Positions 13,830-39,192 of a stretch of DNA of 64,000 nucleotides are shown here, in pieces. The notes under the pieces are model-generated. The model saw only the letters and a program-made list of their open reading frames with translations. It ran no database searches and had not been told where the DNA came from. How positions within the stretch are numbered: position 1 is the first letter of the stretch; each line of letters starts with the position of its first letter. The position numbers were made by a program, and so were the translations under genes. The stretch comes from Octopus sinensis (Eukaryota). The stretch lies in NCBI RefSeq assembly GCF_006345805.1, contig NC_043000.1:141422001-141486000 (forward strand), written 5' to 3'.

Positions 13830-13866
13830 CTTTTACGTTTCGAGCCTACGCTCTTCCACAGAAAGG
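13830..13866 (-). ncRNA. Variant or degenerate minimal type I hammerhead-like motif
   Basis: cuuu-CUGUGGAA-GAGC guag GCUC-GAAA-CG-UA-aaag; core has A6U plus an extra A. Confidence 0.4.
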
Positions 13867-13936
13867 AACACAGAAAGAAACAAGAGAAAAAAATGTTTGT
13901 AGTAGCTACGTTTGTATGTGTGTATGTATGTATGTA

Positions 13937-14149
13937 AGAAACGTTAGCACGCAGGGTGAAATGCTTAGCGGTATTTCGTCTGCGTTACGTTGTGAGTTCA
14001 AATTCCGCCGAGGTCGACTTTGCCTTTCATCCTTTCGGGGTCGATAAATTAAGTACCAGTTACGCACTGGGGTCGATGTAATCGACTTAATACCTATATC
14101 TGTCCTTGTTTGTCCCCTTTGTGTTTAGCCCCTTGTGGGTAATAAAGAA

Positions 14150-14152
<3 letters not shown>
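13937..14152 (+). mobile_element. SINE family B, 5'-truncated, inside (ATGT)n
   Basis: Match to family B. Confidence 0.85.
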
Positions 14153-14180
<28 letters not shown>

Positions 14181-14432
14181 TGTATGTATGTATGTATGTA
14201 TGTATGTATGTATGCGTGTGTGTGTATGCATTCATGCACATACATGCTTATATGCATGCATGTGTGTGCATAACTATGAAATTTCTATCTATCCAGATGA
14301 CTATTGTTTTGGGTGTCTTTCTATTTGTACCTCTTTCGATTTCTCTCGAAGTTTTCTCTTTCTAAAATCTTACACATCCAATTTAACTTCCTATTGATCA
14401 GTTTGCAGCATTTCTCCCTTAACCTATGTATG

Positions 14433-14464
<32 letters not shown>

Positions 14465-14632
14465 CACACTTTTAAATATATTGATCTCTCTTCTATTCAT
14501 ATACTTCACCCACTTTTTGCTTTGATCTCACAGGTTTTCTTTCTATCGAGATTCTCCTTTCAGTGTATAGTCTTTCGCTGTCCACCTCATCCCACATCTC
14601 TCCCTCTGTTTTTTTTTTCTCTCTCTCTCTAT

Positions 14633-14669
<37 letters not shown>

Positions 14670-15034
14670 CTTGATCTTTTTACTTTCTTATCGTACTTTT
14701 TCACCTCTCTTTTAAGTCTATGGCTATTTAAACAATGACAAGACTTAAGTAGAAAAAGATGTTTGGTTTAGCTAAGATGCCACCTCTTACATAATCACAA
14801 GCTAACGACTCGCATTAGTCCAAGAGTAAATATACTTTTTTACTGTATATGTTGCTGTCATACTTGTTTATCCCTGTCTCTTCCCCCAAGCAGACACTGA
14901 GTCAATGACAATAGATATCTTTGTCACGGACGCAGTGTACAGCGACAACGTATGAACGGCGGACATTCGGCTAGTAGACCGATGCAATAATATTCTGTAC
15001 AACAGAGCTGACTTCCATATCAACTTTATATTTT

Positions 15035-15452
15035 TATTTCTTTTTTGCCCACAGGGGTCTAAACACAGAGTGGACAAACAAGGACAGACAAAGGGATTAA
15101 GTCGGTTACATCGACCCAGTGCGTAACTGGTACTTATTTAATCGACCCAGAAAGGATGAAAGACAAAGTCGACCTCGGCGGAATTTGAACTCAGAACGTA
15201 ACGGCAGACGAAATGCCTATTTCTTTACTACCCACAAGGGGCTAAACACAGAGAGGACAAACAAGGACAGACAAACGGATTAAGTCGATTACAACGACTC
15301 CAGTGCGTAACTGGTACTTAATTTATCGACCCCGAAAGGATGAAAGGCAAAGTCGACGTAGTCGGAATTTGAACTCAGAACGTAACGGCAGACGAAATAC
15401 CGCTAAGCATTTCGCCCGGCATCCTAACGATTCTGCCAGCTCACTGCCCTTA
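15035..15452 (-). mobile_element. SINE family B, dimeric
   Basis: Two body units joined at AAAGAAATAGGCATTTCGTCTG (read on the minus strand near 15205-15230). Confidence 0.88.
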
Positions 15453-17236
15453 TTGCATCTTCATCTTCAAACGCAGCTAAAGTTCAATGAAATAGGTACT
15501 ATGGATTTGTTAGCGCTTATTTTATCTTGAATGGTGCTGATACTTCAGCCTGGAATTTAAAGAGACGATAGGAAATACCTTGTTACTTAATGTCTGCCAT
15601 TCAACCGCTTCTACCATTCGTCAGTATACTCCATAACTGGCTGGAATCTCAACCCGTTCTTTTTTCGTTCATTCAGTAAGCTGGAGTCTTTTAACCAGAT
15701 TTCCATTCCAGAAGCAATCGTTGAGCAGTTCTATAACTGCCACACATTCTTCTTTCTGCCAGGTTGACGCGTACCAATTTGGTTCTGTGTCCCAGATCAA
15801 TCATGATGCTCTTCGATATATGAAACTTCACCTGTAAGGAAATAGGGTTTCCATTACTTTACAACCTTTTCGTCAGAATAACCGTTTTAACTTCTGTCAC
15901 CCAAAGTTTGAATATTAAACATCAACACCTACGAAATTAAATAAAGTCCCAATTTAAGTAAATTAAATGTTAGAGTTAAGATTATAGCTTGAACATTTTG
16001 TTATTCATGGCTTATAATGTTTAACCATTCTTATATCACCAAGAATGTTATACTTTGATAATCAGTGCACTCAACGTATGTAGATAGGATTTCAAGATTA
16101 AAACCCGGAATACTTAGTACATCAGTTCTAGGACGCCCAGACCTAAAGCTACTGATTAACGAACTGCGCAACAATGAAAGGAAGCTGATTGAAGGGGTAA
16201 AATGAAAAGAATAGAAATGCTGATATCTTGCAACAGAAAATACAAATGGTCAAATCGATGGGGGAGAAAAGATTTCTAGTAAAGACATTTTAGTAAGGAT
16301 GATCGGCAAGAATGATCGTTACTCATTTATGTTAAACAGAAAGACTGCAGTGTTTATGCTCAGATGCCACCTCTACAACACAAGGGTATGAAAGTTATTT
16401 GATTGATCTGAATGAAAGAGGTACAACATTGAAATACAGTTGCAATTTGGTCTTTGACTAACTAAACGGAGCATGAGTTCCAACAAGCCCACATGTATAA
16501 CTCTGGTATGTAAAGAGGCCTGGGAAGCTTATAATCACCATTATCTGAAGAAGTGATTAACTGAGGTATAGCTCACAGTGACAGGAAAATTTGCCTTATT
16601 AGAACATGTCAGATTTGTTAAGTTGATGTCAACTGCAATTAGCAGAAGTGAAGGCTTTCCCAGTTATCTTTCTATCTGAAAGTGACCAAGCTTCTGAGAG
16701 AAGATGCTGACAAGTGAGTTGAGCATACTAGATTATTCTTTTAAACATAGAATGAAATTGTTTCATTCAAACAATGAGGTTTCATTTTGCCCTGAGTAGT
16801 ATCGACTGGAAGGTTTAAGTAGGACATTATAAATACCATGCAATATATTGTAGAGAGGATTAACATTAGAGCTCACCTAAGTCGGGCTCTAACTAAATTA
16901 ATTGAAAATATTCACCAACGTTACTCCTCCATTGTTGGTGGCTCTCGAGAGTGCGACCGACAGATATCCTTTCAGATATTCAAGCATTGCATCCAGCAGC
17001 GATATATTCATGGTTTATTACGTGTGTTCTTTTACATAAAATGAAATAATAAATGCGCCCTTTTAAAGCATAGCCAGGCTAATGGGCCCAGTTTCCTGGT
17101 TTCAATGGCGTATGTGTTCCCCAGCTGGACGGGACGCCAGTCCATCACATGAGACTGATATTCCAGTACTGGGTTACATGTTACCAGTAGCACTCAAAAG
17201 TGATCTGACACTAACATACATACATACATACATACA

Positions 17237-17268
<32 letters not shown>

Positions 17269-17270
<2 letters not shown>

Positions 17271-17446
17271 GGCATAGGAGTGGCTGTGTGGTAAGTAGAT
17301 TGCTTAATAAACCACATGGTTCCGGGTTCAGTCCCACTGCGTGGCATCTTGAGCAAGTGTCTTCTAATATAGCCTCGGGCCAACCAAGGCCTTGTGAGTG
17401 GATTTGTTAGACGGAAGCTGAAAGAAGCCTGTTGTATGTATATATC

Positions 17447-17481
<35 letters not shown>

Positions 17482-17690
17482 TTGTGTGTCTGTGTTTCTC
17501 TCCCCAATATCGCTTGACAACTGATGCTGGTGCGTTTACGTCCCCGTAAATTAGCGATTCGGCAATAGAGACTGATAGAATAAGTAATAGGCTTACAAAG
17601 AATAAGTCCTGGGGTCGATTTGCTCGACTAAAGGCGGTGCTCCAGCATAGCCACAGTCAAATGACTGAAACAAGTAAAAGAGTAAAGAGT
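17269..17690 (+). mobile_element. SINE family A
   Basis: Full-length, inside (TACA)n. Confidence 0.9.
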
Positions 17691-18039
17691 ACATACATAC
17701 ATACATACATACGTATATATGTATGCATGTATATATGTCTGTTCTATTTTTTTAATTATTATAAATCTTCCACTGAGGAGGCAAATGGTTTCCAACTAAG
17801 ATACAAGGCTCCATCTTTGGGATGTAGTTAACATAGACAAATTCAAATTTAGAACATGAGAAAAGTCTTGCATATTTTTACTGTTCCACTCACAGATTGC
17901 ACACTTGTGATGTACGAATTAGCTGGTCGATTTTTCTTTCTGAAAATCCCAGTTTATCCAGATGTATGTATGTATGTATGTATGTATGTATGTATGTATG
18001 TATGTATGTATGTATGTATGTATGTATGTACGTACGTAT

Positions 18040-18581
18040 GTCAGGTCACTTTCGAGTGCTACTGGTAACATGTAATCCAGTACAACCTGTTGCATGGTCG
18101 GGTCGTCGTCGACTAAACCGGCAACCCCACCAAGCTTGCTTGGTGAGGAGGGTGTTTATTGGACACCCTGCGGGATGAAAAACAAAACCCGTCAAAGGGC
18201 GGAGAAACTCTTGAGAGTTAACGGCCATCCAATAAATGTCTTAAGGATGTATCATGCGCGGAGACATAGAAATAATCGGACTGAATACTCGATCGCGCGG
18301 TTAAACCATTGGGAGTGAAGGACTCCTAGCCTTTGTTAGGGCATCCTTCTAGGAGAAGGTAACTCAGGTAACTGGAATGACTCCGGCATAAAACCTGCAG
18401 CTCAGTGGTTACCGATGATGTTGACTTGTTCTTCTTTTCGGATTATGGTTGCTGTTGCTTTGTGAGTGGGATTGACTCAGTGCACAGCCTTTCCTCACTT
18501 AAAAAAAACTCTTCTTGCACGATAACAACATTGATTAAGCTTCGTGCAATGGCCATACTCGATAACGAGGGGGCAGCCACC
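18040..18581 (+). mobile_element. Short non-autonomous element resembling RTE 5' UTR plus 3' end, inside (ATGT)n
   Basis: GGGCATCCTTCTAGGAGAAGGTAACTC RTE-UTR-like motif; partial copies at 17165-17210 (-), 20916-21017 (+) and 47773-47915 (-). Confidence 0.6.
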
Positions 18582-19702
18582 ATGTATGTATGTATGTATG
18601 TATGTATGTATGTATGTATGTATGGATGGATGGATGGATGGATGGACATATATATATACATATATATATATATACATTTAGCAGAAGTAACTGAGTGACG
18701 CAATGTCCGAGAGTTTCGTGCGATGAGTAAATACCGTATCGCTGAAAATATACGTAAATTTATATTTTGAGTACTATTTTTCCTGTTTGCACCAGCATAC
18801 CTCTGTGTGAGAGGGGGGTATTTGTGTGTGTGTGCGTGTATGTGTGTGTGTGGATTTCTCTAAAGGTGCGCGAGGACCATTTGTGTTGGCCATCCGAATA
18901 TACTATACTAGTTAATATACTATACTAGTAATTACTAATCCAAAGTTTGGATGTTTAGTCACCTAGCTCTAAGTAATCCGAATTAGTACTGTCATTCAGA
19001 TACCTAATGCTGAAATTATTCAGTTCAAGAAAAGGTCGAGGATGAAGTACTACAGAGGAAAAAAATGAGAAAAAAATGTATGAAGAAAGAATTAATTTTG
19101 AAAGTAACGAAACAAAATATTTTGTATTTCTATTATCTGTGTATGTATATATGTCTATGTATATGAGAGAGAGAGAGAGACAGAGAGAGAGAGTGTGTGT
19201 GTGTGTATGTGTGTGTGTGTGTGTGTTTGTGTGTGGTGTGTGTGTGTGTGTGTGTGTGTCTGTGTGTGTGTGTGCGTGTGTGTATTTGCATGTGTATTCT
19301 ATGTGTATTCTATGTAGGGACGTTTAATATAGAAGCTTCAGAGTAGCCTCCCTTGCAAAAGGAAAGAGTTCTCTCCCTTGCAAACATAATTTTTTAATCT
19401 TTTCTAGTTACTGGATAACGTTTCGTATACTGGCTGCTACAGTAATTCAATGCTTTACCATTAATGCACTTAACTCTCAGTAAGTCCTAAAATATAGTAG
19501 ATAAAAGCCGTATAAAACACTACATTTGGAAACTATGCAGGACTTGTCTTCCTGTTTCTGCAGAACTGTTTTGCCGTAGAATGTTTTACTGTATAGCTAA
19601 TTTCTAGAAATGATTCACGTATGTTTGAAGGCAGAGAGAAGCTTGCTAGTGCTATAATATATTAAGCGCTCAACTGAAAATAATAATGAGAGAGATTATA
19701 TA

Positions 19703-20476
19703 TTTATTTATCGTCCACAGAGGGTTAAACACAAAGGGGACAAACAAAGGGATTAAGTTGATTACATCGCCCCAGTGCGTAACTGGTACTTATTTAATCG
19801 ATCCCGAAAGGATGAAAGGCAAAGTCGACTTCGGCGTAATTTGAACTCAGAACGTAACGGCAGACGAAAAACAACTGAGCATTTCGCCCGGCGTGCTAAC
19901 AATTCTGCGAGCTCGCAGCCTTATAATGAGAGATATTATAGTCTCAGCAAACCTAGACAGTAGGGTGGATTCTGGCAGTTTTTGAGCAGAGAAACCCTTT
20001 TTTCAACAATATCTGAAAGAGCACACGAGTCAGCTAGTAATACAGCAGCAAAGCGATGAAAGTATTAATTATCTTTGCTCGGCTTTTCGGGGATAGCTCT
20101 CTTTTCAACCAGGACAGACAAACGGATTAGGTCGATTATATCGACCCCAGTGCGTAAGTGGTACTTATTTAATCGATCCCGAAAGGATGAAAGGCAAAGT
20201 CGACTTCGGCGTAATTTGAACTCAGAATGTAACGGCAAACGAAAAACAACTGAGCATTTCGCCCGGCGTGCTAACAATTCTGCGAGCTCGCAGCCTTATA
20301 AAGAGAGATATTATAGTCTCAGCAAACCTAGACAGTAGGGTGGATTCTGGCAGTTTTTGATGAGAGAAACTATTTTTTCAACAATATCTGAAAGAGCACA
20401 CGAGTCAGCTAGTAATACAGCAGCAAAGCGATGAAAGTATTAATTATCTTTGCTCGGCTTTTCGGGGATAGCTCTC
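19703..20476. repeat. About 375 bp tandem duplication containing a minus-strand SINE B plus flank
   Basis: 19750-20101 repeated at 20125-20476, nearly identical. Confidence 0.9.
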
Positions 20477-20770
20477 TTTCCAACCATTTCTGACGAAGTA
20501 ACTACGTCAGTCGTTGTCTTGTCCTGTTTCCTCTATACCGAGTGAAACTCTTTAACTTTCTTCACAGTTCAAATGCTCGGTAGTACGAACTTAGCTGCTC
20601 AATCGTTAAGTTTCAAACATACAAAATGTTTCTGCTTAACAATTGTTTCTCGTATAGACCTATACCACATCACCTGGGTGTGAATCACCACGACGATAGC
20701 TTTTAAATAAATCCAATAGTAAGAGAAAATATTCAAAATTACAAATTACTCCAAGATTATGTAAAAGAGT

Positions 20771-20916
20771 AGAGGCGCGTGGCTTAGTGGTTAGGATGTC
20801 AGCATCATGATCGTAAGATTGTGGTCTCGATTCCTGGACCGGCCGACACGTTGTGTTCTTGAGCAAAACACTTCATTTTACGTTGCTCCAGTCCACTCAG
20901 CTGGCAAAAATGAGTA
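20771..20916 (+). mobile_element. SINE family D head (tRNA-like)
   Basis: GGCGCGTGGCTTAGTGGTTAGG A-box, GGTCTCGATTCC B-box, TGTGTTCTTGAGCAAAACACTT conserved-type block. Confidence 0.75.
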
Positions 20917-21465
20917 CTGGAATAACTCCGATATAAAACCTGCGGCTCAGTGGTTACCGATGATGTTGTCTTGTTCTTCCTTTCGGATTATGGCTGCTGT
21001 TGCTTAGTGAGTGGGATGTATGTATGTATGTATGTATGTATGTATGTGTATGTATGTATGTATGTATGTATGTATGTATTATGCATGTATGTATGTATGT
21101 ATGTATGTATGTATGTTTGTATGTATGTATGTATGTATGTATGTATGTATGTATGTATGTATGTATGTATAAAGAAACCAATAAAGGATAAAAATTGTCT
21201 TCCTTAATTTTAAAATGCTTTATTCGCTTATTCAAGAATATTCCTCACTTATGTGTAACAAATTGAAACAAATAAAGATATAAAAAGTGGTCTGTTATAA
21301 CAAAAAGTAAAAAAAAAATTGTTTTCTTAAGACATCCGGTGAATAATTTGCTGTATTGTCTCTTCTTACCCAAGAAGAAATAAAATCCGTTATGTCCACG
21401 GTCTTCAGTTCAATACCACTCGTTGCTGCAATTATGTACACACACTCACTCACACACACACATAC

Positions 21466-21697
21466 TATTTCTTTACTGCCCACAAGGAGCTAAACACAGA
21501 GAGGACAAACAAGGACAGATACACGGATTAAGTCGATTATATCGACCCCAGTGCGTAACTGATACTTATTTAATCGACCCCGAAAGGATAAAAGGCAAAG
21601 TTGACCTTGGCAGAATTTGAACTCAGAACGGAGTTGCAGACGAAATACCGCTAAGCATTTCGCCCGGCGTGCTAACGTTTCTGCCAGCACGCCGTCT
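21466..21697 (-). mobile_element. SINE family B
   Basis: Match to family B. Confidence 0.88.
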
Positions 21698-21771
21698 TTA
21701 CAAACACTTATACTAACGATCACATATACACTCACATGTATACATACGCGCACTCACACATACACACACCT

Positions 21772-21776
21772 ATCTG

Positions 21777-21856
<80 letters not shown>

Positions 21857-21857
21857 A

Positions 21858-21946
<89 letters not shown>
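21772..21946. repeat. (TCTA)n microsatellite
   Basis: Direct reading. Confidence 0.95.
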
Positions 21947-21948
<2 letters not shown>

Positions 21949-22163
21949 CTGTATCTCTCTGCAACTATCTATGCATAAGTATGTGTAAAAGACACTTGCG
22001 GAACAAGCAGCATAGTGGGTCCAAACTCGTAACTATGTACTTTCGATTTGAGTTTCTGAATGGAATGACCCTAGTTGGAACGCCTAAAGCAACAACAAAG
22101 AAAACAGCAACAATGATAATGTCTTTCTAGTTATTTCGCGCAATGCTTATTATAAAATGGTAT

Positions 22164-22367
22164 TCTTTTACCTGTTGCAGTCATTTTACTGCAGCCTTGC
22201 TGGAACACCGCCTTTAGCCGAACAAAACGACCCCAGGACGTATTCTTTGTAATCCTGGTACTTATTCTATCGGTTTCTTTTACCGAACCACCAACTTACG
22301 GGGTCGTAAACACATCAGAATCGGTTATCATATGATGGTGGTGGGGAACAAATACATACACACAAAC

Positions 22368-22400
<33 letters not shown>

Positions 22401-22888
22401 ATTCCAAGAGAGTTAGAGGTGCTGAATCCAACCAACTAAGGCATAATATCTATTCAATATACTGCTGGTAGAATACTCAATTATTAATACACTAGTGTTT
22501 TTTTCATTGCATGGCAATTACACTACTGAATGTAATAAATGAGTCGTTTTACACTTAATTTATACAGTAATAAGAAAATGGAGGGGATCAAGAGGTGGTA
22601 TTCATCAACTTTTAGACATTATATTATGTCTATTTATTTATGTTTGAAAAAAAGAAAAACAATTATAACTGTTTTTTTTTAAATATATAGACATAATACA
22701 ATGTCTAAAAGTTGATGAATACCCCCTCTTGATCCACTCTATTTTCTTATTGCTATATATATATATAGTTTCCGTCTACTAAATCTACTCACAAGACTTT
22801 TTTCGGCCCGTGGCTATAGCAGAAATCTTAGTAGCAGAACCATGTGGTTGGAAAGCAAACTCCTTACCACACTGCCTCGTCTGCGCCT
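22164..22888 (-). mobile_element. SINE family A interrupted by an insertion of about 370 bp in its TA tract
   Basis: 3' half 22164-22370 and 5' half 22767-22888. Confidence 0.8.
22561..22758. repeat. About 200 bp palindrome, MITE-like
   Basis: 22561-22635 is the reverse complement of 22685-22758. Confidence 0.9.
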
Positions 22889-25099: not shown

Positions 25100-26067
25100 A
25101 AGGCGGCGAGCTGGCAGAAACGTTAGCACGCTGGGCGAAATGCTTAGCGGTATTTCGTCTGTCGCTACGTTCTGAGTTCAAATTCCACCGAGGTCGACTT
25201 TGCCTTTCATCCTTTCGGGGTTGATAAATAAAGTACCAGTTACGCACTGGGGTCGATGTAATCGACTTAATCCCTTTGTCTGTCCTTGTTTGTCCCCTCT
25301 ATGTTTAGCCCCTTGTGGGTAATAAAGAAATAGGTATTTCGTCTGTCGCTACGTTCTGAGTTCAAATTCCGCCGAGGTCGACCTTTGCCTTTCATCCTTT
25401 CGGGGTTGATGAATAAAGTACCAGTTACGCACTGGGGTCGATGTAATCGACTTAATCCCTTTGTCTGTCCTTGTTTGTCCCCTCTATGTTTAGCCCCTTG
25501 TGGGTAATAAAGAAATAGGTATTTCGTCTGTCGCTACGTTCTGAGTTCAAATTCCGCCGAGGTCGACTTTGCCTTTCATCCTTTCGGGGTTGATAAATAA
25601 AGTACCAGTTACGCACTGGGGTCGATGTAATCGACTTAATCCCTTTGTCTGTCCTTGTTTGTCCCCTCTATGTTTAGCCCCTTGTGGGTAATAAAGAAAT
25701 AGGTATTTCGTCTGTCGCTACGTTCTGAGTTCAAATTCCGCCGAGGTCGACCTTTGCCTTTCATCCTTTCGGGGTTGATGAATAAAGTACCAGTTACGCA
25801 CTGGGGTCGATGTAATCGACTAATCCCTTTGTCTGTCCTTGTTTGTCACCTCTATGTTTAGCCCCTTGTGGGTAATAAGAAATAGGTATTTCGTCTGTCG
25901 CTACGTTCTGAGTTCAATTCCGCCGAGGTCGACTTTGCCTTTCATCCTTTCGGGGTTGATAAATAAAGTACCAGTTACGCACTGGGGTCGATGTAATCGA
26001 CTTAATCCCTTTGTCTGTCCTTGTTTGTCCCCTCTATGTTTAGCCCCTTGTGGGCAATAAAGAAATA
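25100..26067 (+). mobile_element. SINE family B pentamer (one head plus five units of about 184 bp)
   Basis: Units start at 25149, 25333, 25518, 25702 and 25885; flanking TTTACACACACAA direct repeat. Confidence 0.93.
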
Positions 26068-26599: not shown

Positions 26600-26641
<42 letters not shown>

Positions 26642-28739
26642 GATATATACATGTATGTACATGTATGCGTATATGCATGTACACACACGCTCGTGCGCAC
26701 ACATACACACACATAACACATACATAAAATCTCTATTCGTGCTTGAAGTAGTATAGGAACCAAAGAGGTGGTGTTTATTGCTACTTTAATGTGGCTGTTC
26801 TCTAAATCACGACGATACTGCTATTTTAACCCCCGGGTGACATCTCCAGCTGGTAAATTCAATGCGTTTTCGCAACCCGATATTTATTAGAAGCGGGAGA
26901 TAACTCCAGCCACCTTAGCTTCGAGATTACGAGACCACCAGATTTCGATCTTATTGGATTTCTTTGGTGGTGGGCACTCGTTTGCCAGGTATGGCAGTAG
27001 TCTAAACTCCCTTGCAATATGTGGAAAAATACAATGTTATTAAATCACTGATTTTGTAACTAGGAAACTAGACCGTTAGCAACCAAAAAGGCAGCATTTA
27101 CCCCACTTTAATGTAGTTGTTCTGTAAGAGACGACGATACTGTTATTTTAACACCAGCTTGTTAATTGGTTTTTTCCCCCATCTCTAGCTAAAACTTCTA
27201 CGTGAGAAACTTCTATGTGAGAAGCGAGTGAGGAGTATCACCAAATTATTATGAAAGAGGAAGTGAGCGTGACGCACAATTACGTCCCCTGAGAATAAAA
27301 CAGACAAGACTGTTTTTAACATGAATGACGTTGAAATTGCTCACAAGGCGGAATATTCCAAGAAAAAAACACCATTAAAAACCAATTCTGTCGACAGCAA
27401 CAACTGCAGCAACGATAATAACACAATTTCAAGTGGAACAAACTAGAAAAAATTCGTGGAATTCAACAATACCGAAAGATGGAAACGAAAACCAACCAAA
27501 ATCATAAAGTGTGTGATTTGACAAACGACACTATCAACACCGAAGACTACTACGCTCGACAAAGATATCATGAACAACAATAGCAGCAGCAGCAGTAGCA
27601 TCATCATCATCATCATCATCATCAACAAGAACAAGAACAACCACAACAACTATAGCAACAACAATAGCAACAATGAAAGAACAAACCGTCAATCCAGTAT
27701 AATGGCAATTACAAACAACAGTCTCTCTTTCGGTCATGGAATCAAGTCCTCTTTTGAGAGAGAAAATTTCTCTGAAGAAGAAATCAAAAACACCAGATAA
27801 TTGGTCGAGCGAGATGACCTGACTGTCAAACTCAACATCCACTCACATCGACACCACTCAAAATACCATACGTCACACAGTATCATTGGACTAAAGTCAA
27901 GAAAGGTGGAATGAGCTACTGAGGCTAAAATCCAAAAGGCATGTGGTTCCGTTTGGAACCTAAAAGAATATATCCAAAGAGGAAGGTGATATGGAACGGT
28001 GGAAATGAGATTTCAAACAAAGGAGGAAGCAACATCTCACAGTCTTGATGCCATGAAAAGGAAGAATTCCTATTATTTCCGTGGTAGGTACTTGTCGTCA
28101 GTGGTTTGTTATAGGAGACGCAGACATGCGCCACCCTGAAAAGGTTAATGTACACCAGACTCTATTGCAAAGATAATCACGCCGCCTTCTTTTAACCGGG
28201 TGGAGCGGGCAGTTTTTATATGCCTGGTGGCCGTAGCGAAAGCGGATGCATGATGGACGAGATTGAAAGGTCTGAAGACAAACACTTACTTCTTTCGCCT
28301 ATTCCTTATAAACTACTTCAAATCTCACTTGATGAGAAAATAAGGGTGGAGAGGAATGTGTTGCATGCCAACCCTTTTGTTGGAAGGTAGATGAAAGTAG
28401 CAAGCTAACAGGCCTGCCCTGAGCATACGCCTGTTTTTGGAGATAAGGAATTGAGAGAAGAACACCTGCCCCCAGACGGTAGCTGTGATTTTATATGTTG
28501 TTTTTTTTTCCTTGAGCATCTCTCGCTATTGAAGAATTCTTGTTGCTAAAATCTCTCTATTTTCTTTCTTTTCTTAAGACTCACAAAACCCTCACACACA
28601 TAGAAATATAGTATTTGTCCAGTACCTTCCTTAATGTTTTTCTTAACGGAATCCGTAGTGGTTGATAAAAACACCACCACCACCAACAACAACAACACCA
28701 CCAGCACTACCGCCACCACCACCACCACCATCGTCATTA

Positions 28740-29780: not shown

Positions 29781-31109
29781 GCCTTTCATCCTTTCAGGGT
29801 CGATGAAATAAGTTCCAGTCGAGCACCGGTTTCTATGTAATCGACTGGTCTGCTTTTCCCCTTTGTATATTTTCAGTTATTTTCTAATATGATTACAGTA
29901 TGTCTCTACATCATATACAGACATTACGAGTCTCCTATTGCATGATCTGTTACAATTAGGTCTTATCTTGTAATCTATGACGGAACCTTTTATCTCAGAT
30001 TTAGAATATATTCTTAATTTAGGAAGGGATTCTTGTTAAATTGCATTTACTTTTAAGTCATAATATTTTATTAACCTTGTTTTCTGTGACATTTATTTAA
30101 CAAGGATTTACCTTATTTTATTTATTTTTATTTTTTTAACCTTTCATTCCATACATTTATTGAAAGAACTTTTTCTTGCTTTGATCTTTATCTACTCAAG
30201 ATTCCGTTTTTTACCTATCGTTTTCTTGGAAACAGTTAACAATTTCCAACGTTTGTTATTTTCGGTATGTGCCATAGATATTTATATATTTATATATACT
30301 AAATTTTCTCATTATTTTGCTTCCTTCATATTTTGACTGTCAAATGGAATGGCAGATGTATTGTAAATATTATTCATTTCATGTTCCTTTACTAATTGAT
30401 TTCGCAAACTAGATTTTTCTTGGTATATCTTCACTAAATAATTTTTAATAACAAGGCACGGGATAAAAGTCTCAGGAGAGCAAGGACATAGATAATTCAA
30501 GAAACCAATGTCATTGTGTAATGAAATAAAAAATCATCCAAGTTACAAATCGAGGGAAGGAACAAAATGAAACAATTGATCAAACACTTTTCTTTCCTCT
30601 GCAGCGGATTTAGGGTCAGAAATGTTTATATTGGATAGGTAAGTATTTCTGAAGCAATTATCCAACTGAATCCAGATATGCTGTTCAATTTTACCGGTTA
30701 CATCGTTTTTTAATACATATTACGTTGAACTTTCACAAACAATATAGTTTTCCTTGATTTTATGTCCTGGTATGGCTTTGGAGCAGTGAACCAGAGTGTG
30801 AAAAATGCTTTATTATAACACCCCCTCCCTTGCATAAAGTATTGCAAAAATTTATGAATTTGACTGATTTTGTGCATTTGATAGTTTAATTGTAGTAAGA
30901 TTTCGGCTAAAATGGGAATGTATTTTTGCCTAAGATAGAGTAAATACGAAAGGAGGCCCAAGATTGCTTTATTCTATTGCTATAAAATGTTGAACACCAC
31001 AAGGTGTGCAGGTTATATACATATAATCTGATATCCTTAAAAGACATCAAATACCATTATGAAGGAAGAGATCTCTGTTTCTTAGACATCCATAAATGTT
31101 TTAGCGTTT

Positions 31110-31680
31110 GGCGATCCCTTTTTATACTCGAACAGTAATCAAGCATCATATTCACATCTCATCTCCCTTGATATCCCTCCTCAATTACCTTCCTATGTTG
31201 GTGGAATATTACTCTCTTTTCATTACTGATATCTTCCAAATTCTGTGGAGATTGATGCTAGTGATAGAATAGAAATGTTTCTTGAACGTCATTTTGAATT
31301 CCAGCGAACAAAAAGACCAGGGCATTTTTTCAACAGTTTCTTTGTATTTGGCTGCTTAGTTGTTGCCAAGAAAGTTAATTTTTTTTAGTGATGTCATCTT
31401 ATGCGTATAATTTGCAGTCTTTTGTTGAGTTCAAGATTCCGTATCAATAGAAAAGAACAAAACCTTGTCCTCTTTTTGTTTTTTTCCTTTATCGTAGGCA
31501 AATATGGCCGAAACCTTAGAACAATTAAACTATCTATGCACAAAATCAGGTTTATTTATAATTTTACTAAATTTTATGCAAAGAAAGAGCGATAATAAAG
31601 CATCTTCACGCTTTATTACGCTGCTCCAAAGTTAGAGTGGGAGAAAACTACGTTTTTTTTTCTATGAAAACAAAGAAGGT
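31110..31680 (-). mobile_element. Decayed DNA transposase C-terminus, Chapaev3-like (CMC)
   Basis: Minus-strand translation NFLGNN*AAKYKETVEKM...MTFKKHF...SPQNLEDISNEKRVIFHQHRKVIEEGYQGR*DVNMMLDYCSSIKRD matches the FLGN..FPENLG.VSDEQGERFHQ..RYQGRW..MMADYCW motif series; family name assigned from recall. Confidence 0.7.
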
Positions 31681-33202
31681 AGTGAGCATACAAAAATCCT
31701 GAAATGATTGGTGAAAAGAATAGCATATCTGGATTTATCTAAAAAAAAGTGCTTCAGAAACATTTGTCACTCCAAAACAAATATTTCCGTCTCCAAATTA
31801 TGTAGTCCTGTGTAATATACAATTTAGTCGTTAATATTTATTTCTACACTGAATACTGAGATATAGTTTGAGAATATTTCTGAATTAGGAGTCCATTTTC
31901 ATGTTTTGTGCGCTCTCAAGTGCATTCAATTTGAAATATCTCTTATTTTTTTATCGTTATCTAATTCCTTTATTTCAGTGTGTACTTAACCTTATATCGT
32001 TCACTTCTAAAAGCAACATTGCCACATTTACTAATTGAATAGTTGTGTGGCATATCATTGGATTTTTCTTCCAAGGATAAAGCTATGTTGAATTGTTACC
32101 AAGCCATTTCCGTATGGGTTAACGTGTTTTTGTTTCAAACCATATTAGGAAGTTGTTTGATCTCTCTACAATGCGTTACGTTAAAAAACAGAAGTTTATT
32201 ATTGTTAGTAATATTTTGATATGTTTTCAGGAATTCCCATGGACAAAATAGACTCACCCAATAGACTCACACTTGAACATTCCAAATCCAAAGTATGTTT
32301 ATTGTATTTCATATGATAGTTACAACATTTGGATTTTTCGCTACGCAATATCAGTACTTGTGTCGTCATTTCATGCAACCGTTAAAGGGAAATGTGCCTT
32401 CATCATGTTGCAAACTTCCGATAAATGAAACAAATTGACCCTCAGCTGTATGTAACGTTAACACAGTCTCACTATAGTGTATTGGACAACGATAACCGAC
32501 TTCTGTCAACACTAGATTGAAACGAGGAATATACTGATAAAAGTTTAGCCGCTTCTGTATTCGGTGATGTGTTGACCTACCGATATTCAAAGAGAAAGAA
32601 GCTAGAGATATTGATGTTTGCTTGCAAGTAACAATGAAATTACTGACACGTTCTCTTGATTGTTCTGCTGTAACTTCAAAGGGACGGTATTTCGCTTTTT
32701 ATCTGTTATACTGGATTTCGTCAAGTTTACAGAATTATATGTTATTGAGCTTTGTGATACGGCTTGAGGTGATTGAACTTTTTCCCCGAGAGAAATGACT
32801 ATTGGAGGAAGATGTAAATACTTAGAGACGCTTGTTTCAGGAAATATTGACAGTAAAGCGGGTGCTAAAACAGTTGGTGCAGTGTGCCAAAAAAATTTAA
32901 TCAAATATAATTACAGACATACTGATGAGAAATCACCCACTACATTAATGAATAACTCCGATTAAGAAAGACAGGTGAGAGAAAGCTGGAATTTAAATTA
33001 AGATTTTAAAAATCCAGAATGCAAGATGTATTAAATAAAAGATATAGAGTGATCTTTGATAATTTTCACCGTGCGGCCAATGATCATGGTCTTCATGTTC
33101 TAGTATAAATTTTAATTCCGATTTGTCTATATTGATTTCTTGATCAGGGTAAGTCATTAATTATGTTAATAGATGTTTTTCTGCTTTCCTCCCCTTCTGC
33201 TG

Positions 33203-33247
<45 letters not shown>

Positions 33248-33258
33248 AATTATATATA

Positions 33259-33740
33259 GGATAAAATTTTTATCGGAAAAAAAAAAATATCAATGGCCAG
33301 CATATCAAAAAATGCCTTTAAAGGTAAAATTTATACATAATTTACAAGATAAGGGCAGAAGAAAAATTCTAATGCCAAATATGCCGAAACAAAAAATTTT
33401 TTTGTCGATAACCATTAAAATTTATGCGTCTCGAAATAAACCGATAGAAATCTCTAAAAAATTCGTTATTACCGTATTGGTCCAATTTCGGGGTTAATTC
33501 ACAAGAAATTTTCCCCTCTTCAGCGGCAAATACGCGAGATATAAATGAAATACTTACTCATACCCAAGAAAAAGCAAGCACTAAGTCCCGAGCAGACTTA
33601 AGTACCCCAAATATATCCAAAATAGAAAAAATCTTCGGCGCACCTCGAGACACGTGTGATTCGAACTAGAAAATTTCACAGAGTGATAGAATCCGGAAGT
33701 TAACACTAATCAATTAATTAACAATTTTACCAAGTAGATC
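33259..33740 (-). mobile_element. TA-adjacent hammerhead-bearing insert (Penelope-like terminal repeat); boundaries approximate
   Basis: Begins at the edge of (TA)n 33203-33258 and carries the hammerhead motif. Confidence 0.5.
33464..33534 (-). ncRNA. Type I hammerhead ribozyme with intact core and palindromic stem III
   Basis: uauuugccg-CUGAAGA-GGGG(19 nt)CCCC-GAAA-UUGG a CCAA-UA|cgguaaua; predicted cleavage between 33475 and 33474. Confidence 0.8.
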
Positions 33741-33920
33741 GGTACGTTAAAATTACCTGGTGTGTTCCATTGGGATTGCACTATGCGAAAGCAACACGAA
33801 TGCGAGGAAGTATATAGTGACCAGCGGTGTATAACAATGTCCCATAGTCTGATCAATACAGTGTTACACTGATACATGCATGTATGTTATGTATGTATGT
33901 ATGTATGTGTATGTATGTAC

Positions 33921-33992
<72 letters not shown>
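33921..33992. repeat. (GATA)n microsatellite
   Basis: Direct reading. Confidence 0.95.
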
Positions 33993-33994
<2 letters not shown>

Positions 33995-34607
33995 ATAAAT
34001 ATAAATTATACATATGTTAATTTGTATGTACGTCTTACGTCAAGGGACTTTGTATATGCACATGTACACAGATATATCGAGAGTATTTGCGAATATATGT
34101 GTGTCTGTGTCTGAAACTTGTAATGAAACAACCCGGAAAATTTGTTTGTCATTTGTTGGCTTTTAAAGTTCGGAAGTTTATCTGACATAGAAACACTTCA
34201 ATTTATCAAATCTTCAATCTCTTAATCTGATATGATTCCCTGAAGGTACTTTAAAGGATTATGTAAGCATTTAGCTGATGGACTTTCCTACAGCTGCAGG
34301 CGAAAAAAAAATAATAATAAATGACGTAAAAATAAATATAAATGAAAAAAAAAAAATACAATTTTGAAAATTTTCAAGAAATCAGTGTTTTTATAGCCAC
34401 AGTACAATTACACTGTAGACGTAATGGTTGATTTCTCAATCATAGATGATTCCCCGAGAAATTCGATTTTATCGATTATTTCTTCTAACCAAAAAGAAAG
34501 AAACAAGCTGATGATGTAGACACCCGCGTCCGCGTGCGCTCACACACATAGAGAAGCACACACACACACACAGAAGCATACACGTATATGTACGTTAAGT
34601 ATATATG

Positions 34608-34636
<29 letters not shown>

Positions 34637-34638
<2 letters not shown>

Positions 34639-34684
34639 CTCCGATGAAGGGATATAAAAAATATCCCGGAAACAGCTGTAAGAC
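34637..34684 (+). ncRNA. Minimal type I hammerhead ribozyme (U4C variant)
   Basis: gucu-CCGAUGA-a GGGAUAU aaaaa AUAUCCC g-GAAA-CAGCUG-UA|agac; predicted cleavage after 34680. Confidence 0.75.
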
Positions 34685-34832
34685 CTATTTATAAATGTTC
34701 TAAAATCTTCACAGCCTTGGGTTTTTTTTATCTCATTCTGAAAAAAATTATATATACATATATATGCATAGATAAATAGATAAGCAGATATATAATATAT
34801 ACATACACACCAGACACCCACATATATATATA

Positions 34833-34863
<31 letters not shown>

Positions 34864-34946
34864 GGTAGATAGATAGATAGATATATTGATTGAGTGAGTG
34901 ATTGATTGATAAATAAACTGATGACTAGACTGATAGAGAGACATAT

Positions 34947-34984
<38 letters not shown>

Positions 34985-35405
34985 GCAGATAGATCAATAG
35001 ATATCACCATCTACAAACACACACACACGTATTCACAAATTTAAATACATGTAAAATATGCTCCAAGCGACGTTCACATACGAACACAACGACCACATTT
35101 AGAATATTCTCTTTCGCTAATATACGTATACCCAAGCTTATACATATGCACATTATCGAATTATTTCTCTTGGCGAATTGTCTTACTGAATATATGTAAT
35201 AAACGTTGAAATAGAAAATAGGTGAAATGTAGTTTCATCAAAACTTAAAGATAAATTTTAATGAGGACCAGTTAACTGGACTCTATGTTGTAAACATCGC
35301 AGCTATAAAATTGTAAACATTCAACGCGCTTTACCCTCTTGACACGTGAAAAAATGCTTGGTGGAACTCTTCTTGATTTCAAAGTAATTTCTTCATAAGC
35401 AGCCC

Positions 35406-35505
35406 NNNNNNNNNNNNNNNNNNNNNNNNNNNNNNNNNNNNNNNNNNNNNNNNNNNNNNNNNNNNNNNNNNNNNNNNNNNNNNNNNNNNNNNNNNNNNNN
35501 NNNNN
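35406..35505. other. Assembly gap (100 N)
   Basis: N run. Confidence 1.
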
Positions 35506-36105
35506 TCTTTCTTTTCTCTCACGCTGACACTCTCATACACACTAGCACACACACACACACACACCACACACACACACACACACACACCACACACACGAAT
35601 GCTCACAATTGTCGATGATCCATGGAAACTTTTTCGTGCTGCAATTTACTTTTCAGACATTTTATGATGATCATACAAAAACAACTTCTATTGGCTTTGT
35701 TGTTGTTGTTGTTGTTATTATTGTTGATGTAAAAATTATTGTGAATTAAGATTAGATGAAATATAGTAACTTGACAGTCTGAATTCATAGGAATATTTCT
35801 GAGATTATTGTATGTCATGTTATATTACTATAACCCCAGGTCGACTCTGATTGATCAGGCATATGATGAAAGACTTTCCAGCCGCAAGCATCCACTCTTG
35901 TCCATTTGGGTTTACTGTCTCCAACGTCTTCTTAGATTTTAACACTGCGGTGTGTGACTTGATTGAAGATTGGTTGTTATATTCAGAAGTCCAAATGACT
36001 CCGCACAGTTATTCTCATTATCTGGGTTATGAAAGGGTTTGCAGCGGAGTTTAGTGCATAGAACTCACTGAATAGGGCTTTTAAAATGTTATGCATACAT
36101 ATATA

Positions 36106-36324
36106 TATTTCTTTATTGCCCACATGAGGCTAAACATAGAGGGGACAGACAAAGACAGACTAAGGGATTAAGTAGATTACATCGACTCCAGTGCGTAACT
36201 GGTACTTTATTTATCGACCCCGAAAGGATGAAAGGCAAAGTCGACCCAGCAGAATTTGAACTCAGAACGTAGCGGCAGACGAAATACCGATAAGCATTTC
36301 GCCCGGCGCGCTGACGTTTCTGCC
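36106..36324 (-). mobile_element. SINE family B, 5'-truncated
   Basis: Match to family B. Confidence 0.87.
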
Positions 36325-36429
36325 ATGCATACATAAATAGATATATAATAATATAGACATACAACATGTAGATATATGCATATCTATAGAAGGTGTGTCT
36401 GCTATTTGGGAACAAAAGTTAATTTAAGG

Positions 36430-37480
36430 AAACAAAAATATTTATTAGAAAAAGCAATATACTTTTATAGAATTTGGTATACACATTCTTACATACACAT
36501 TACAAAATGTTTATTCGATAAAACCGCTATCAATCTCCATTACAGCCTCGATACCGCTTCGGACATGACTAAATTCGTTAATGAGGTCATTTGTATTCAT
36601 ACTGGCCATACCATACTCAGTAGCAAACATCTACGAGTCCTTGGTATTGTGGTTACGCTTGTTGGTCCTGCCTCTCAAAAAACTCCCGAGCTATAGTGCT
36701 CGGAGAGCTAGGAGTCCAAATGTTAGGGGTAACATGATCATAAAAATGTTCGGCCATTCATTTCCGGATCGTACCTGCTGTGTGAAGAGGAAGTAGGTTT
36801 TTCTGGAACATGTTCGGCCTTACACGAATAAATCTCTTGATCAAGGGCTTGAAAACCGTCTCCATTTTCTCGGCAAAAAGTGAGGAGGTGTGGCACAGTC
36901 TCATTGCCAACAACCTCTGGTGCCATCACAGGCGATGGGAACTAGATGTGTATAACAGTGAAGACATCAATGTGGACGACGCAGGTTCAGCTGTCGTTCT
37001 TCACGAGCCAGAACATGTCGGGCTCCTGAGAGTGCTCGAGTTTGTTCAGCAAGCACTTCCGCGAGTATCACAAGATTCTTCTGATCCGGGTTTTATCAGA
37101 TATGAATAAACCTCTTGTCATACCATTGGAATTGTTTTTGAAGCCTTCTTGAACTACACATCTTATCCTTGACTCCGACACATAGAGATAATTTGTATTG
37201 GCTCTTATTGATTAGCCAAGATTCCCGTTGATGCTGCCCCGGGCTTCATGGACGAACTTGACTTTCATGACAATATCTGAGCGCCGAAAATGCATTTTTC
37301 TTCTTATGGCTACAGGAGACACATCCCCACTCGAAGCCCAAAGCTTTTTCTGATTTTAAATACGGTTGAACTGGTGACACTTAAGGTTTCAAGTGGAGAA
37401 CCACTGGGGTTAACAGTTAAGCCTTTTCATCGTCTGCGTTAGGTTCAAAGGTTCCATGTTAAGTTTGTGAGAAAAGAAAA
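36430..37480 (-). mobile_element. Decayed Tc1/mariner-superfamily transposase, maT/DD37D-like
   Basis: Minus-strand motifs FPSPVMAPEVVGNE (compare FPASVMVWGVVSNE) and HVTPNIWTPSSP (compare WPPSSPD); many stops and frameshifts. Confidence 0.65.
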
Positions 37481-37717
37481 TAGTCAAAGTTTGGGCTACA
37501 TATGTTTCTTAAAAGCTTTATAGTTTTATTCTCAACTAGCCGATGTATCTTTTATATATGTATATATGCATGTATCTGTACGCATAACATATATGTGTGC
37601 ATATATATAACATAACATATATATATATATATATAGATATATATATATATATATATATAATATATATATAATATAGCATAAGCACGCACACACACACACA
37701 CATATAAATATATATAT

Positions 37718-37835
37718 TGGCCTGCTCACTTAGCCAGCGGGGTGGCGTCATTCGAAGGCTAAAACAATGCGAACGCATTATGGCCAGTGATGTGTAACAA
37801 CATCTGATGGTCTGGTCGGTCACGTGATCACCTGA
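37718..37835. repeat. Small hairpin-rich insert within (TA)n
   Basis: GC-richer 118 bp between TA arrays; hairpins AATGCG-AA-CGCATT and GATGT..ACATC; related remnant at 33817-33865. Confidence 0.5.
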
Positions 37836-37850
37836 TATATATAATATATT

Positions 37851-37882
<32 letters not shown>

Positions 37883-38194
37883 TTCCTCTGCTATTCTCTA
37901 AATTACAGCAGGCTTACAACTTATGCTTTATTTTCTAAACTCGTTCTGCCACAGATATAACAAAAGGAAACAATGTAAATATTTTGGGTTCCAATATTGA
38001 TGTAAATATGTTTAAAAAATGGTTTATCCTTTATTTTCGAAGTGTACGTCGTCATCTGACGAGAACGGATTCTTTCGAATCGACGTAATGTTTACATTAA
38101 TCAACTAAATGAGCCTCTTGAAACACCGCCCCCCATACATACATACATACATTACATACATACATACATACACATACATACATACATACACAAC

Positions 38195-38276
<82 letters not shown>

Positions 38277-38318
38277 TAATTTATAATGTATATGTACATA
38301 CACCCATACATACATAAA

Positions 38319-38369
<51 letters not shown>

Positions 38370-38396
38370 TGTATATATATATATATATATATATAG

Positions 38397-38733
38397 GGTT
38401 CAGAATTCCAATTCAAACAAGGAGAAATATTTAAGATCAAATCAAATTTCACCTGTGCCTCAGCAAATGTAATCTGTGTCATGGCATGCATAGGATGTGG
38501 TGAACTCTATATTGGACAAACAGGAATTTCGCTTCGTCAAAGAATTACCATTCACAAAGAGCAAATCCGTCAGGTGTGCCAGGAATCTTAATCCCAATTT
38601 CCAAATATTTCCCTTTTACCAATGTTCACAGAACACCACAATGCAACAAAGGTTGAATAAAGAGGCATTTTTCATCAATAAATTTCTCTCCCAACTAAAT
38701 ATGAACACACAACTCAATACAGAACACCACTAA
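38397..38733 (+). mobile_element. Penelope-like element GIY-YIG endonuclease fragment (frameshifted)
   Basis: [49 protein letters not shown], then a shifted frame ..QRLNKEAFFINKFLSQLN*; typical PLE C..NVIY.I.C..C...YIGQT pattern; starts at a (TA)n edge. Confidence 0.85.
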
Positions 38734-38903
38734 CTCTTCAATTGAATCCACTAACCCCTATACACTTCCTACATCACTCACATCTCTAAATCCAGAACTA
38801 CTTACCTCCCTTACAAAAAATCCAGAACTACTTACCTCCCTTACAAATAATCTTTTTTCTCAGGAACTATTAGACCTGACACCGTGTATTAGCCGATGTT
38901 TTT

Positions 38904-38942
38904 CAAACGATGAATAGAGTGCGTAAACCATGGTCCGTTTTG
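38904..38942 (+). ncRNA. Degenerate hammerhead in the Penelope 3' region
   Basis: aaacg-(CUG missing)AUGA..-G(U)AAA-CCAUGG-UC|cguuu. Confidence 0.5.

Positions 38943-39151: not shown

Positions 39152-39192
<41 letters not shown>

What the first reader, a model, noticed from the sequence alone, without database searches (positions are those of the whole stretch)
13830..38942. Candidate system: multiple microsatellite-targeting, hammerhead-bearing Penelope-type families
Seen: six hammerhead-shaped motifs of different sequence (13830, 26935, 33464, 34637, 38051, 38904). Five lie in inserts bounded by or starting at TA, TG or TATG arrays, and two flank a PLE GIY-YIG fragment. Known: PLE terminal repeats carry such ribozymes and some PLEs prefer simple repeats. 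Inference: a diverse set of ribozyme-processed small retroelements mobilised by PLE machinery that colonise, and perhaps extend, this genome's microsatellites. I cannot verify whether these families have been described.
Basis: partly seen in the sequence, partly recalled or inferred. Interest (0 to 1): 0.8.

Follow-up and report, generated by a model that had tools for sequence, protein, structure and literature searches.

The report
Penelope transposon ends in TA microsatellites
The six hammerhead-like RNA motifs belong to six unrelated repeat families: four are tail ends of Penelope-type jumping genes and two are likely short non-coding hitch-hikers, and the younger ones sit in TA microsatellites, a pattern already described for this class of transposon.

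Summary
All six motifs lie at the stated coordinates. Each belongs to its own dispersed repeat family, with no DNA similarity between families. Hammerhead-shaped motifs exceed chance: 13 in an 800-kb systematic genome sample against 0-3 in shuffles. Four families (13830, 34637, 38051, 38904) are 3' ends of protein-coding Penelope-like elements: two Neptune/Nematis-type, two fitting the Hydra clade. Two (26935, 33464) are 357-nt and about 470-nt non-coding tandem units resembling non-LTR retrozymes; no master element was found. TA targeting is strong for the four younger families (family F: 3' end 29 of 30, 5' end 18 of 25; random 4.7%; SINE control 6 of 74 and 0 of 88) and weak for the two old ones. 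The motifs beside the GIY-YIG fragment come from two separate insertions. Extension of microsatellites, cleavage and circular RNA were not shown. Hammerhead-bearing, (TA)n-targeting Penelope families, including an octopus one, are in print. Left over: an A3-U8 core pair in family F, with G3-C8 and U3-A8 motifs in the same genome. The scan noted similar elements on other genomes.

The parts
13722..13912 (-). Family A: 5'-truncated 3' end of a Neptune/Nematis-type PLE, between TATG/TGTA runs
   Evidence: collinear RT+GIY-YIG ORF upstream in L214/L273, L216/L274 and L356
13830..13865 (-). Family A minimal type-I hammerhead motif (U at position 6, extra A after A9, 4-nt palindromic helix III)
   Evidence: full pattern in 12 of 30 copies
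26726..27157 (-). Family B: one 357-nt non-coding unit plus a partial upstream unit; old family (copies 74-81% alike to the window copy)
   Evidence: head-to-tail junction in 17 of 29 loci
26935..26973 (-). Family B hammerhead motif; the window copy is broken (8-nt loss in helix III, A at position 5)
   Evidence: both core boxes in 12 of 29 copies, core plus full helix III in 1 of 29
33248..33718 (-). Family C: about 470-nt non-coding unit ending in the (TA)n array 33203-33258
   Evidence: head-to-tail junction in 19 of 29 loci by strict pattern; inverted 5' piece in 18 of 29
33469..33529 (-). Family C canonical type-I hammerhead motif, 6-bp helix I, near-palindromic helix III; predicted cleavage after 33475
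   Evidence: intact pattern in 20 of 29 copies; predicted dimer fold
34637..34756 (+). Family D: last 120 nt of a Hydra-type PLE, between TA/TG and TA-rich arrays; hammerhead motif 34637-34684 (C at position 4)
   Evidence: motif lies downstream of the endonuclease on the same strand in 21 of 30 loci
37881..38125 (+). Family E: piece of the 3' UTR of an old Hydra-type PLE; hammerhead-like motif 38053-38090 lacking A15.1
   Evidence: degenerate endonuclease about 2 kb upstream in L297, with the intervening UTR shared by L307, L301 and others
38395..39154 (+). Family F: 5'-truncated Neptune/Nematis-type PLE between two (TA)n arrays
   Evidence: 625-aa RT+GIY-YIG frame in L130
38397..38720 (+). 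GIY-YIG endonuclease fragment of family F, broken by a short deletion
   Evidence: Pfam PF01541 E 0.0032, below cut-off, for the fragment; 27.3 bits, above the 22.6 cut-off, for L130
38905..38940 (+). Family F hammerhead-like motif with A3-U8 core pair, 2-bp helix II, palindromic helix III
   Evidence: 223 genome matches, 0 in the reversed control; A3 with U8 in 95 of the 100 listed; helix I pair A-U 16, G-C 7, G-U 2, unpaired 1 of 26 scored, 30 examined
38135..38395 (.). Compound TACA/(TA)n array that separates the E and F insertions

Best explanation
The six motifs are type-I hammerhead or hammerhead-like sequences near the 3' ends of six unrelated repeat families, four of them truncated protein-coding Penelope-like elements and two of them short non-coding tandem units likely moved by Penelope proteins, and the younger families sit in (TA)n arrays that they likely target as pre-existing sites. 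Shown: family membership, upstream ORFs for A, D, E and F, discrete 3' ends, variable 5' truncation, inverted and head-to-tail pieces, TA on both flanks. Inferred from published PLE biology: the GIY-YIG endonuclease nicks (TA)n, reverse transcription starts at one of two internal sites near the RNA 3' end (giving the optional tail), and it usually stops early, so most copies keep only the ribozyme-bearing end. Predicted only: the palindromic helix III lets two tandem ribozymes cleave as a dimer, which in B and C would release unit-length RNA that could circularise. The six lie near each other because this genome is rich in both TA arrays and PLE debris, not because they form one system.
For: Separate families with many copies each and no cross-family DNA match. 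F: 625-aa RT+GIY-YIG frame with a C-x4-C-x2-C linker. A: RT motif, linker and GIY-YIG collinear upstream. D: CxCx5C in 19 of 30, CxxCxxE in 25 of 30, N..CxH in 27 of 30 endonuclease loci, the Hydra marks in Craig 2021 section 11; hammerhead downstream in 21 of 30. E: the same marks in a degenerate frame. (TA)4+ within 21 nt of the outer ends, 3' then 5': F 29 of 30 and 18 of 25 (16 of 21 without inversion, at variable truncation points); C 25 of 28 and 18 of 29; A 19 of 30 and 11 of 28; D 17 of 30 and 7 of 30; random positions 4.7%; tRNA-type SINE 6 of 74 and 0 of 88. Two 3' ends in D (17 long, 11 short, 2 other of 30), also seen in C, E, F and B. Descriptor hits 13 against 0, 3, 0, 1, 1 in five shuffles of 799.8 kb. 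B and C fold better than all 100 shuffles (z -2.97, -2.58).
Against: TA adjacency is weak for the old families: E 5 of 27 and 4 of 27, B 5 of 29 and 2 of 29 (E's reference lacked the long tail, so its 3' figure is a lower bound). No reverse transcriptase was recovered for D or E. D's endonuclease scores 19.2 bits, below the Pfam cut-off, and a protein search for longer relatives found none. No master or PLE-like terminus was found for B (31 loci) or C (35 loci; three ORF neighbours are separate insertions). E mostly lacks the GAAA box (3 of 27), and A and F depart from the core, so some motifs may be dead. Loci were the 30 best matches per family, not a random draw. No tree was built, so clade names rest on motifs.
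Confidence: 0.85

Rival explanations
1. One reading: all six are small ribozyme-processed non-autonomous elements forming one system that colonises and lengthens microsatellites.
For: Most copies are short. B and C are non-coding tandem units. 3' arrays beside F are long (median 45.5 bp, 24 of 30 measured) against a median of 17 bp for 915 genomic arrays.
Against: A, D, E and F continue upstream into PLE ORFs. The length-weighted genomic median is 48 bp, so long flanks are expected from targeting alone. TA at variable 5' truncation points argues for pre-existing arrays.
Confidence: 0.08
2. B and C are not independent retrozyme-like units but pseudo-LTR remnants of autonomous PLEs whose long copies were missed because only the best 40 matches were scored.
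For: They show the same inverted 5' pieces and two 3' ends as coding PLEs. Ranking favoured unit-length copies.
Against: Upstream of the unit start lies the previous unit's end in 19 of 29 (C) and 17 of 29 (B) loci by strict pattern, and never an ORF. L036 holds two full C units with hammerheads 468 nt apart.
Confidence: 0.2
3. The hammerheads are passengers or act late: they are kept as structure but do not process the RNA used for insertion.
For: In the anole Poseidon element, ribozyme-dead mutants inserted normally in vitro and no reads ended at the cleavage site (PMC11167929). A, E and F carry core changes in most copies.
Against: The 3-8 pair stays complementary across families (C-G, G-C, U-A, A-U) and helix I covaries within F, which suggests selection on the fold, though few independent events underlie these counts.
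Confidence: 0.3
4. Chance look-alikes in an AT-rich, microsatellite-rich genome.
For: Rfam finds nothing. Three window copies fail a strict descriptor.
Against: Shuffle controls, reversed-pattern controls of 0, conserved position near PLE 3' ends, SINE control.
Confidence: 0.02

Closest known systems
Hydra-clade PLEs, including Hydra-1_Obim of an octopus (Craig et al. 2021, PMC8557442; section 11, passages and supplement part 2 read)
   Same: C-terminal GIY-YIG without CCHH, CxCx5C linker, CxxC and CxH motifs, hammerhead near the 3' end, (TA)n insertion: families D and E.
   Different: The hammerhead listed for Hydra-1_Obim is not that of D or E (by eye). D and E have 3' UTRs of about 1-2 kb. 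RT and the DKT motif were not recovered.
Neptune/Nematis-type PLEs with a CX2-5CxxC linker (Craig 2021 passages; Arkhipova 2006 only as cited there)
   Same: RT, linker, CCHH-type GIY-YIG, microsatellite bias, 5' truncation, tail: families A and F.
   Different: Unusual ribozyme cores (U6 in A; A3-U8 with an extra base before A13 in F). Neptune rather than Nematis is my recalled reading, not tested by a tree.
Minimal PLE hammerheads (Cervera and De la Pena 2014, PMC4209133; parts 1-2 of 4 read)
   Same: Type I, short palindromic helix III, extra base after A9, many families per genome, mostly single motifs from truncated copies, a U3-A8 variant.
   Different: A3-U8, G3-C8 and U6 variants are not named in the parts read. 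Lunse et al. (RNA Biol, doi 10.1080/15476286.2016.1251002) deals with core variants but is not held.
Non-LTR retrozymes (Cervera and de la Pena 2020, PMC7229834, passages; Li, Clavereau and Pollet 2026, bioRxiv 2026.07.22.740005, part 1 of 5 and passages)
   Same: Non-coding tandem units with one type-I hammerhead each, thought to be moved by PLEs: families B and C.
   Different: C is slightly above the 150-450 bp range, arrays are short (up to about 2.6 units), and TA targeting is not mentioned in the passages seen. Cleavage, circular RNA and similarity to a PLE terminus are not shown here.

Membership tests
EN+ Penelope-like elements (A, D, E, F) | PLE-type reverse transcriptase in the same ORF | tested here: inconclusive
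   Met for F (625 aa) and A (RT motif in L273); not recovered for D or E in the longest copies fetched.
EN+ Penelope-like elements (A, D, E, F) | C-terminal GIY-YIG endonuclease upstream of the hammerhead | tested here: met
   F above Pfam cut-off; D E 0.0015, below cut-off, with motif tallies; A and E by tblastn and motifs.
EN+ Penelope-like elements (A, D, E, F) | Discrete 3' ends with optional tail, 5' truncation, inverted or partial tandem pieces | tested here: met
   (inverted pieces: D 19 of 30, E 8 of 27, F 4 of 30, A 1 of 30).
Hydra clade (D, E) | CxCx5C linker, CxxC and CxH around E and N, no CCHH | tested here: met
   D: 19, 25 and 27 of 30 loci; E: one degenerate frame; absence of CCHH judged by eye.
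Hydra clade (D, E) | N-terminal RWK and DKT motifs; placement in the RT tree | tested here: inconclusive
   An RWR-bearing N-terminal piece is joined to E in L161; DKT and tree not tested for lack of RT.
Neptune or Nematis clade (A, F) | CX2-5CxxC linker plus CCHH-type endonuclease | tested here: met
   C-x4-C-x2-C in F and in A relatives; does not separate Neptune from Nematis.
Neptune or Nematis clade (A, F) | Placement in the RT phylogeny | not tested
   No reference PLE proteins were on hand.
Non-LTR retrozymes (B, C) | Short non-coding head-to-tail units, one type-I hammerhead per unit | tested here: met
   units of 357 and 468-470 nt; B copies mostly decayed.
Non-LTR retrozymes (B, C) | Sequence similarity to the terminal repeat of an autonomous PLE | tested here: inconclusive
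   No match to the four long PLE copies held; other PLE families of the genome were not available.
Non-LTR retrozymes (B, C) | Self-cleavage and accumulation as circular RNA | not testable with these tools
   Needs raw RNA reads or bench work.
Type-I hammerhead ribozyme | Core with a 3-8 pair, G5, A6, A9, G12-A13-A14, A15.1-U16.1, H17 and three helices | tested here: inconclusive
   Met by C, by D (C4 variant) and by the B column majorities; A has U6; F has A3-U8 and an insertion; not met by E (no A15.1) or by the window copy of B.
Type-I hammerhead ribozyme | Site-specific self-cleavage | not testable with these tools
   Only predicted dimer folds for C, D and F.

The most novel reading that the evidence does not exclude
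Family F carries a natural, active hammerhead with an A3-U8 core pair, so the Penelope-type motifs of this one genome use all four Watson-Crick versions of the 3-8 pair. Because each family also has its own palindromic helix III, the ribozymes work as family-specific dimer locks that cleave only tandem RNA of their own kind, and family C is a retrozyme that targets (TA)n and amplifies through a 470-nt circular RNA.
Probability: 0.2. Interest if true: 0.55.

Novelty: new member of a known kind. Interest (0 to 1): 0.27.

Why it matters
As found, it adds six families to a described class and corrects their annotation (two Neptune/Nematis-type, two Hydra-type, two retrozyme-like). Extrapolating the sample (about 12 hits above background in 0.8 Mb) gives roughly 40,000 descriptor-positive motifs in this genome. 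If the deviant cores cleave, the genome offers a natural set of hammerhead core variants and a direct way to test the open question of what PLE hammerheads are for. If family C makes circular RNA, it would tie retrozymes to microsatellite-targeting PLE machinery.

Tried and rejected
Rfam scan of the window: no hit. One element flanked by two hammerheads: rejected, E and F are unrelated. D and E as Nematis-type, my first recalled reading: replaced by Hydra after reading Craig 2021. Master element for B or C: none among 31 and 35 loci. Expression of C: no RNA holder listed. Empty site for the A insertion in contigs of four runs: no joint skipping the element, and repeats were skipped, so uninformative. 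Extension of arrays from flank lengths: not separable from length-biased targeting. Longer protein relatives of the D endonuclease: none, weak evidence. The first attempt to extend E upstream hit an unrelated repeat, later used as a rough control (2 of 16 3' ends near TA). The SINE 3'-end control used a wrong end and was redone. The B count (0 of 29) came from a faulty pattern and was redone. Five loci repeating another locus's insertion (L051, L119, L162, L167, L179) were dropped before the counts. Literature searches. None showed a natural A3-U8 hammerhead or these six families, but Lunse et al., Repbase/Dfam entries and most supplements were not seen (only parts of the Craig 2021 supplement), so novelty of the variants is open.
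Full report
Setting. The window lies at G000:C4:141422001-141486000 in a 2.72-Gb animal genome full of microsatellites (150 rows). Its repeats look octopus-like to me; that is recalled, not shown by a call.

Are the motifs there? Yes, at 13830, 26935, 33469, 34637, 38053 and 38905. Rfam finds none at gathering score. A type-I descriptor accepts three (A 13830, C 33469, D 34637) against a mean of 0.175 in 40 shuffles. A second descriptor that frees the 3-8 pair gave 13 hits in a systematic sample of 80 stretches of 10 kb (799,800 bases) against 0, 3, 0, 1, 1 in five shuffles; the window's 2 hits under it are about what that density predicts. The 13 hits fall into about eight sequence types, including G3-C8 and U3-A8 cores. 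The G3-C8 36-mer has 519 exact genome matches and 0 in the reversed control.

What each one is. A DNA search of the own genome with each insert returned 40 or more matches, of which the best 30 loci were studied. The families share no DNA similarity. Alignments of the motif region show the following. A: U at position 6, an extra A after A9, a 4-nt palindrome. B: column majorities give a full type-I hammerhead with a 6-bp helix I and a 10-nt palindromic helix III, but the family is old (both core boxes in 12 of 29) and the window copy has lost 8 nt. C: canonical, intact in 20 of 29. D: C at position 4, 8-nt palindrome. E: first box in 21 of 27 but GAAA in only 3 of 27, so it is only hammerhead-like. 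F: A3-U8, 2-bp helix II, one extra base before A13, palindromic helix III. A pattern that left positions 3 and 8 free found 223 genome matches, 0 in the control, with A3 and U8 in 95 of the 100 listed. One helix I pair in F is A-U in 16, G-C in 7, G-U in 2 and unpaired in 1 of 26 scored copies out of 30; these are related copies, so few events.

Links to masters. F continues upstream into a 625-aa frame with reverse transcriptase, a C-x4-C-x2-C linker and GIY-YIG (Pfam 27.3 bits, cut-off 22.6); the window holds only the broken last part. A continues through about 0.8 kb of UTR into RT motifs, the same kind of linker and GIY-YIG in L273 and L274, and in L356 of the systematic sample. D's motif lies downstream of an endonuclease on the same strand in 21 of 30 loci found with that protein, the query's own locus included. 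This endonuclease has CxCx5C (19 of 30), CxxCxxE (25 of 30) and N..CxH (27 of 30) and no CCHH, the marks of the Hydra clade (PMC8557442 section 11). E has a degenerate endonuclease with these marks about 2 kb upstream in L297, with the UTR shared by other copies, and an N-terminal piece joined by an apparent internal deletion in L161. No RT was recovered for D or E. B and C have no collinear ORF of their own in 31 and 35 loci. Their units of 357 and 468-470 nt are preceded by the end of another unit in 17 of 29 and 19 of 29 loci, and they fold better than all 100 shuffles. They fit non-LTR retrozymes in anatomy (PMC7229834 passages; bioRxiv 2026.07.22.740005).

Microsatellites. I scored (TA)4 or longer within 21 nt of the outer ends of each insertion. 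3' and 5': F 29 of 30 and 18 of 25; C 25 of 28 and 18 of 29; A 19 of 30 and 11 of 28; D 17 of 30 and 7 of 30; E 5 of 27 and 4 of 27; B 5 of 29 and 2 of 29. Random positions give 4.7%; the abundant tRNA-type SINE gives 6 of 74 and 0 of 88. In F, 16 of 21 copies without inversion have TA at 5' breakpoints that differ from copy to copy, which points to insertion into existing arrays rather than a tail made by the element. These loci are the best matches, not random draws, and E's 3' figure is a lower bound. Extension is undecided: F's 3' arrays have a median of 45.5 bp (24 measured) and genomic arrays 17 bp (n 915), but the length-weighted median is 48 bp, and no empty site was available.

Ends. 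Copies stop at discrete 3' positions, usually two per family: D 17 long, 11 short, 2 other of 30; C at unit positions about 390 and 468, the inverted 5' pieces mostly ending at 390; F 43 nt apart; E and B likewise. This is the PLE tail (PMC8557442 passages), which in vitro corresponds to two internal start sites of reverse transcription (PMC11167929, parts 1-2 of 4 read). In C, D and E the short end falls on a TA-like patch inside the element, which hints at pairing with the nicked target. The anole element started at a non-homologous site, so this is only an inference.

Mechanism. Shown: anatomy, ORF links, TA flanks. Inferred: GIY-YIG nicking of (TA)n, target-primed reverse transcription from internal sites, frequent early stop, mobilisation of B and C in trans. 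Predicted only: dimer folds for C, D and F and any cleavage. Against a processing role, ribozyme-dead anole RNA inserted normally in vitro.

Known or new. Hammerheads in PLE termini, many families per genome, mostly single motifs, and U3-A8 are in PMC4209133. Core variants U3-A8, C6, U13a, U15.1-A16.1 and 2-bp helix II are in PMC3088659 (passages). (TA)n preference of Hydra and Naiad families, with an octopus Hydra family and its hammerhead, is in PMC8557442 and its supplement. An octopus repeat annotation lists 31 recently active Penelope-like families and does not use the word ribozyme (PMC13282606 passages). I did not find these six families or a natural A3-U8 core in eight searches, but the paper most likely to list such variants (Lunse et al.) is not held, and repeat databases were not available. 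Two earlier notes of this scan describe similar elements in other genomes; they are unchecked and did not change the reading.

Verdict. A real observation with a mostly known explanation: new members of a known kind, interest 0.27. The A3-U8 motif and the TA-targeting retrozyme-like family C are the parts worth a bench test.

Noticed in passing
L348:225(+), L363:966(-); G000 genome-wide: Hammerhead-like family with a G3-C8 core and 7-bp helix I: 519 exact 36-mer matches, several as head-to-head inverted pairs about 30 bp apart. Parent element not identified.
   Followed up: partly
L363:8747(+): Hammerhead-like motif with a U3-A8 core, 34 nt before a (TA)n array; seen once in the sample.
   Followed up: no
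window 25149-26067, 15035-15398, 19738-20486: Tandem arrays of a 184-bp tRNA-type SINE unit (5 copies at 97% in the first); in the sample many SINE 3' ends run on into the start of the same unit.
   Followed up: partly
window 37716-37836 and 33719-33874: A repeat of about 120 bp between TA arrays with no hammerhead seen (6 hits in the sample, 2 ending directly in TA) and a weak relative (69% over 68 nt, E 0.007) just upstream of the C insertion.
   Followed up: partly
L161/L282: Family E copy in which an N-terminal ORF piece is joined directly to the 3' UTR, an apparent internal-deletion derivative.
   Followed up: partly
window 54215-56740 (-): Broken frames with protease-like and integrase-like motifs, probably an LTR retrotransposon remnant (reading recalled, not tested).
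   Followed up: no
window 6704-8091: A 1.4-kb degenerate (CCA)n array giving long open frames on both strands.
   Followed up: no
window 13480-13707: Another high-copy repeat directly beside the A insertion, covered by many contigs in three large runs.
   Followed up: no
L033, L052, L174, L187, L283: Different PLE families often lie side by side at one TA array, as E and F do in the window.
   Followed up: partly
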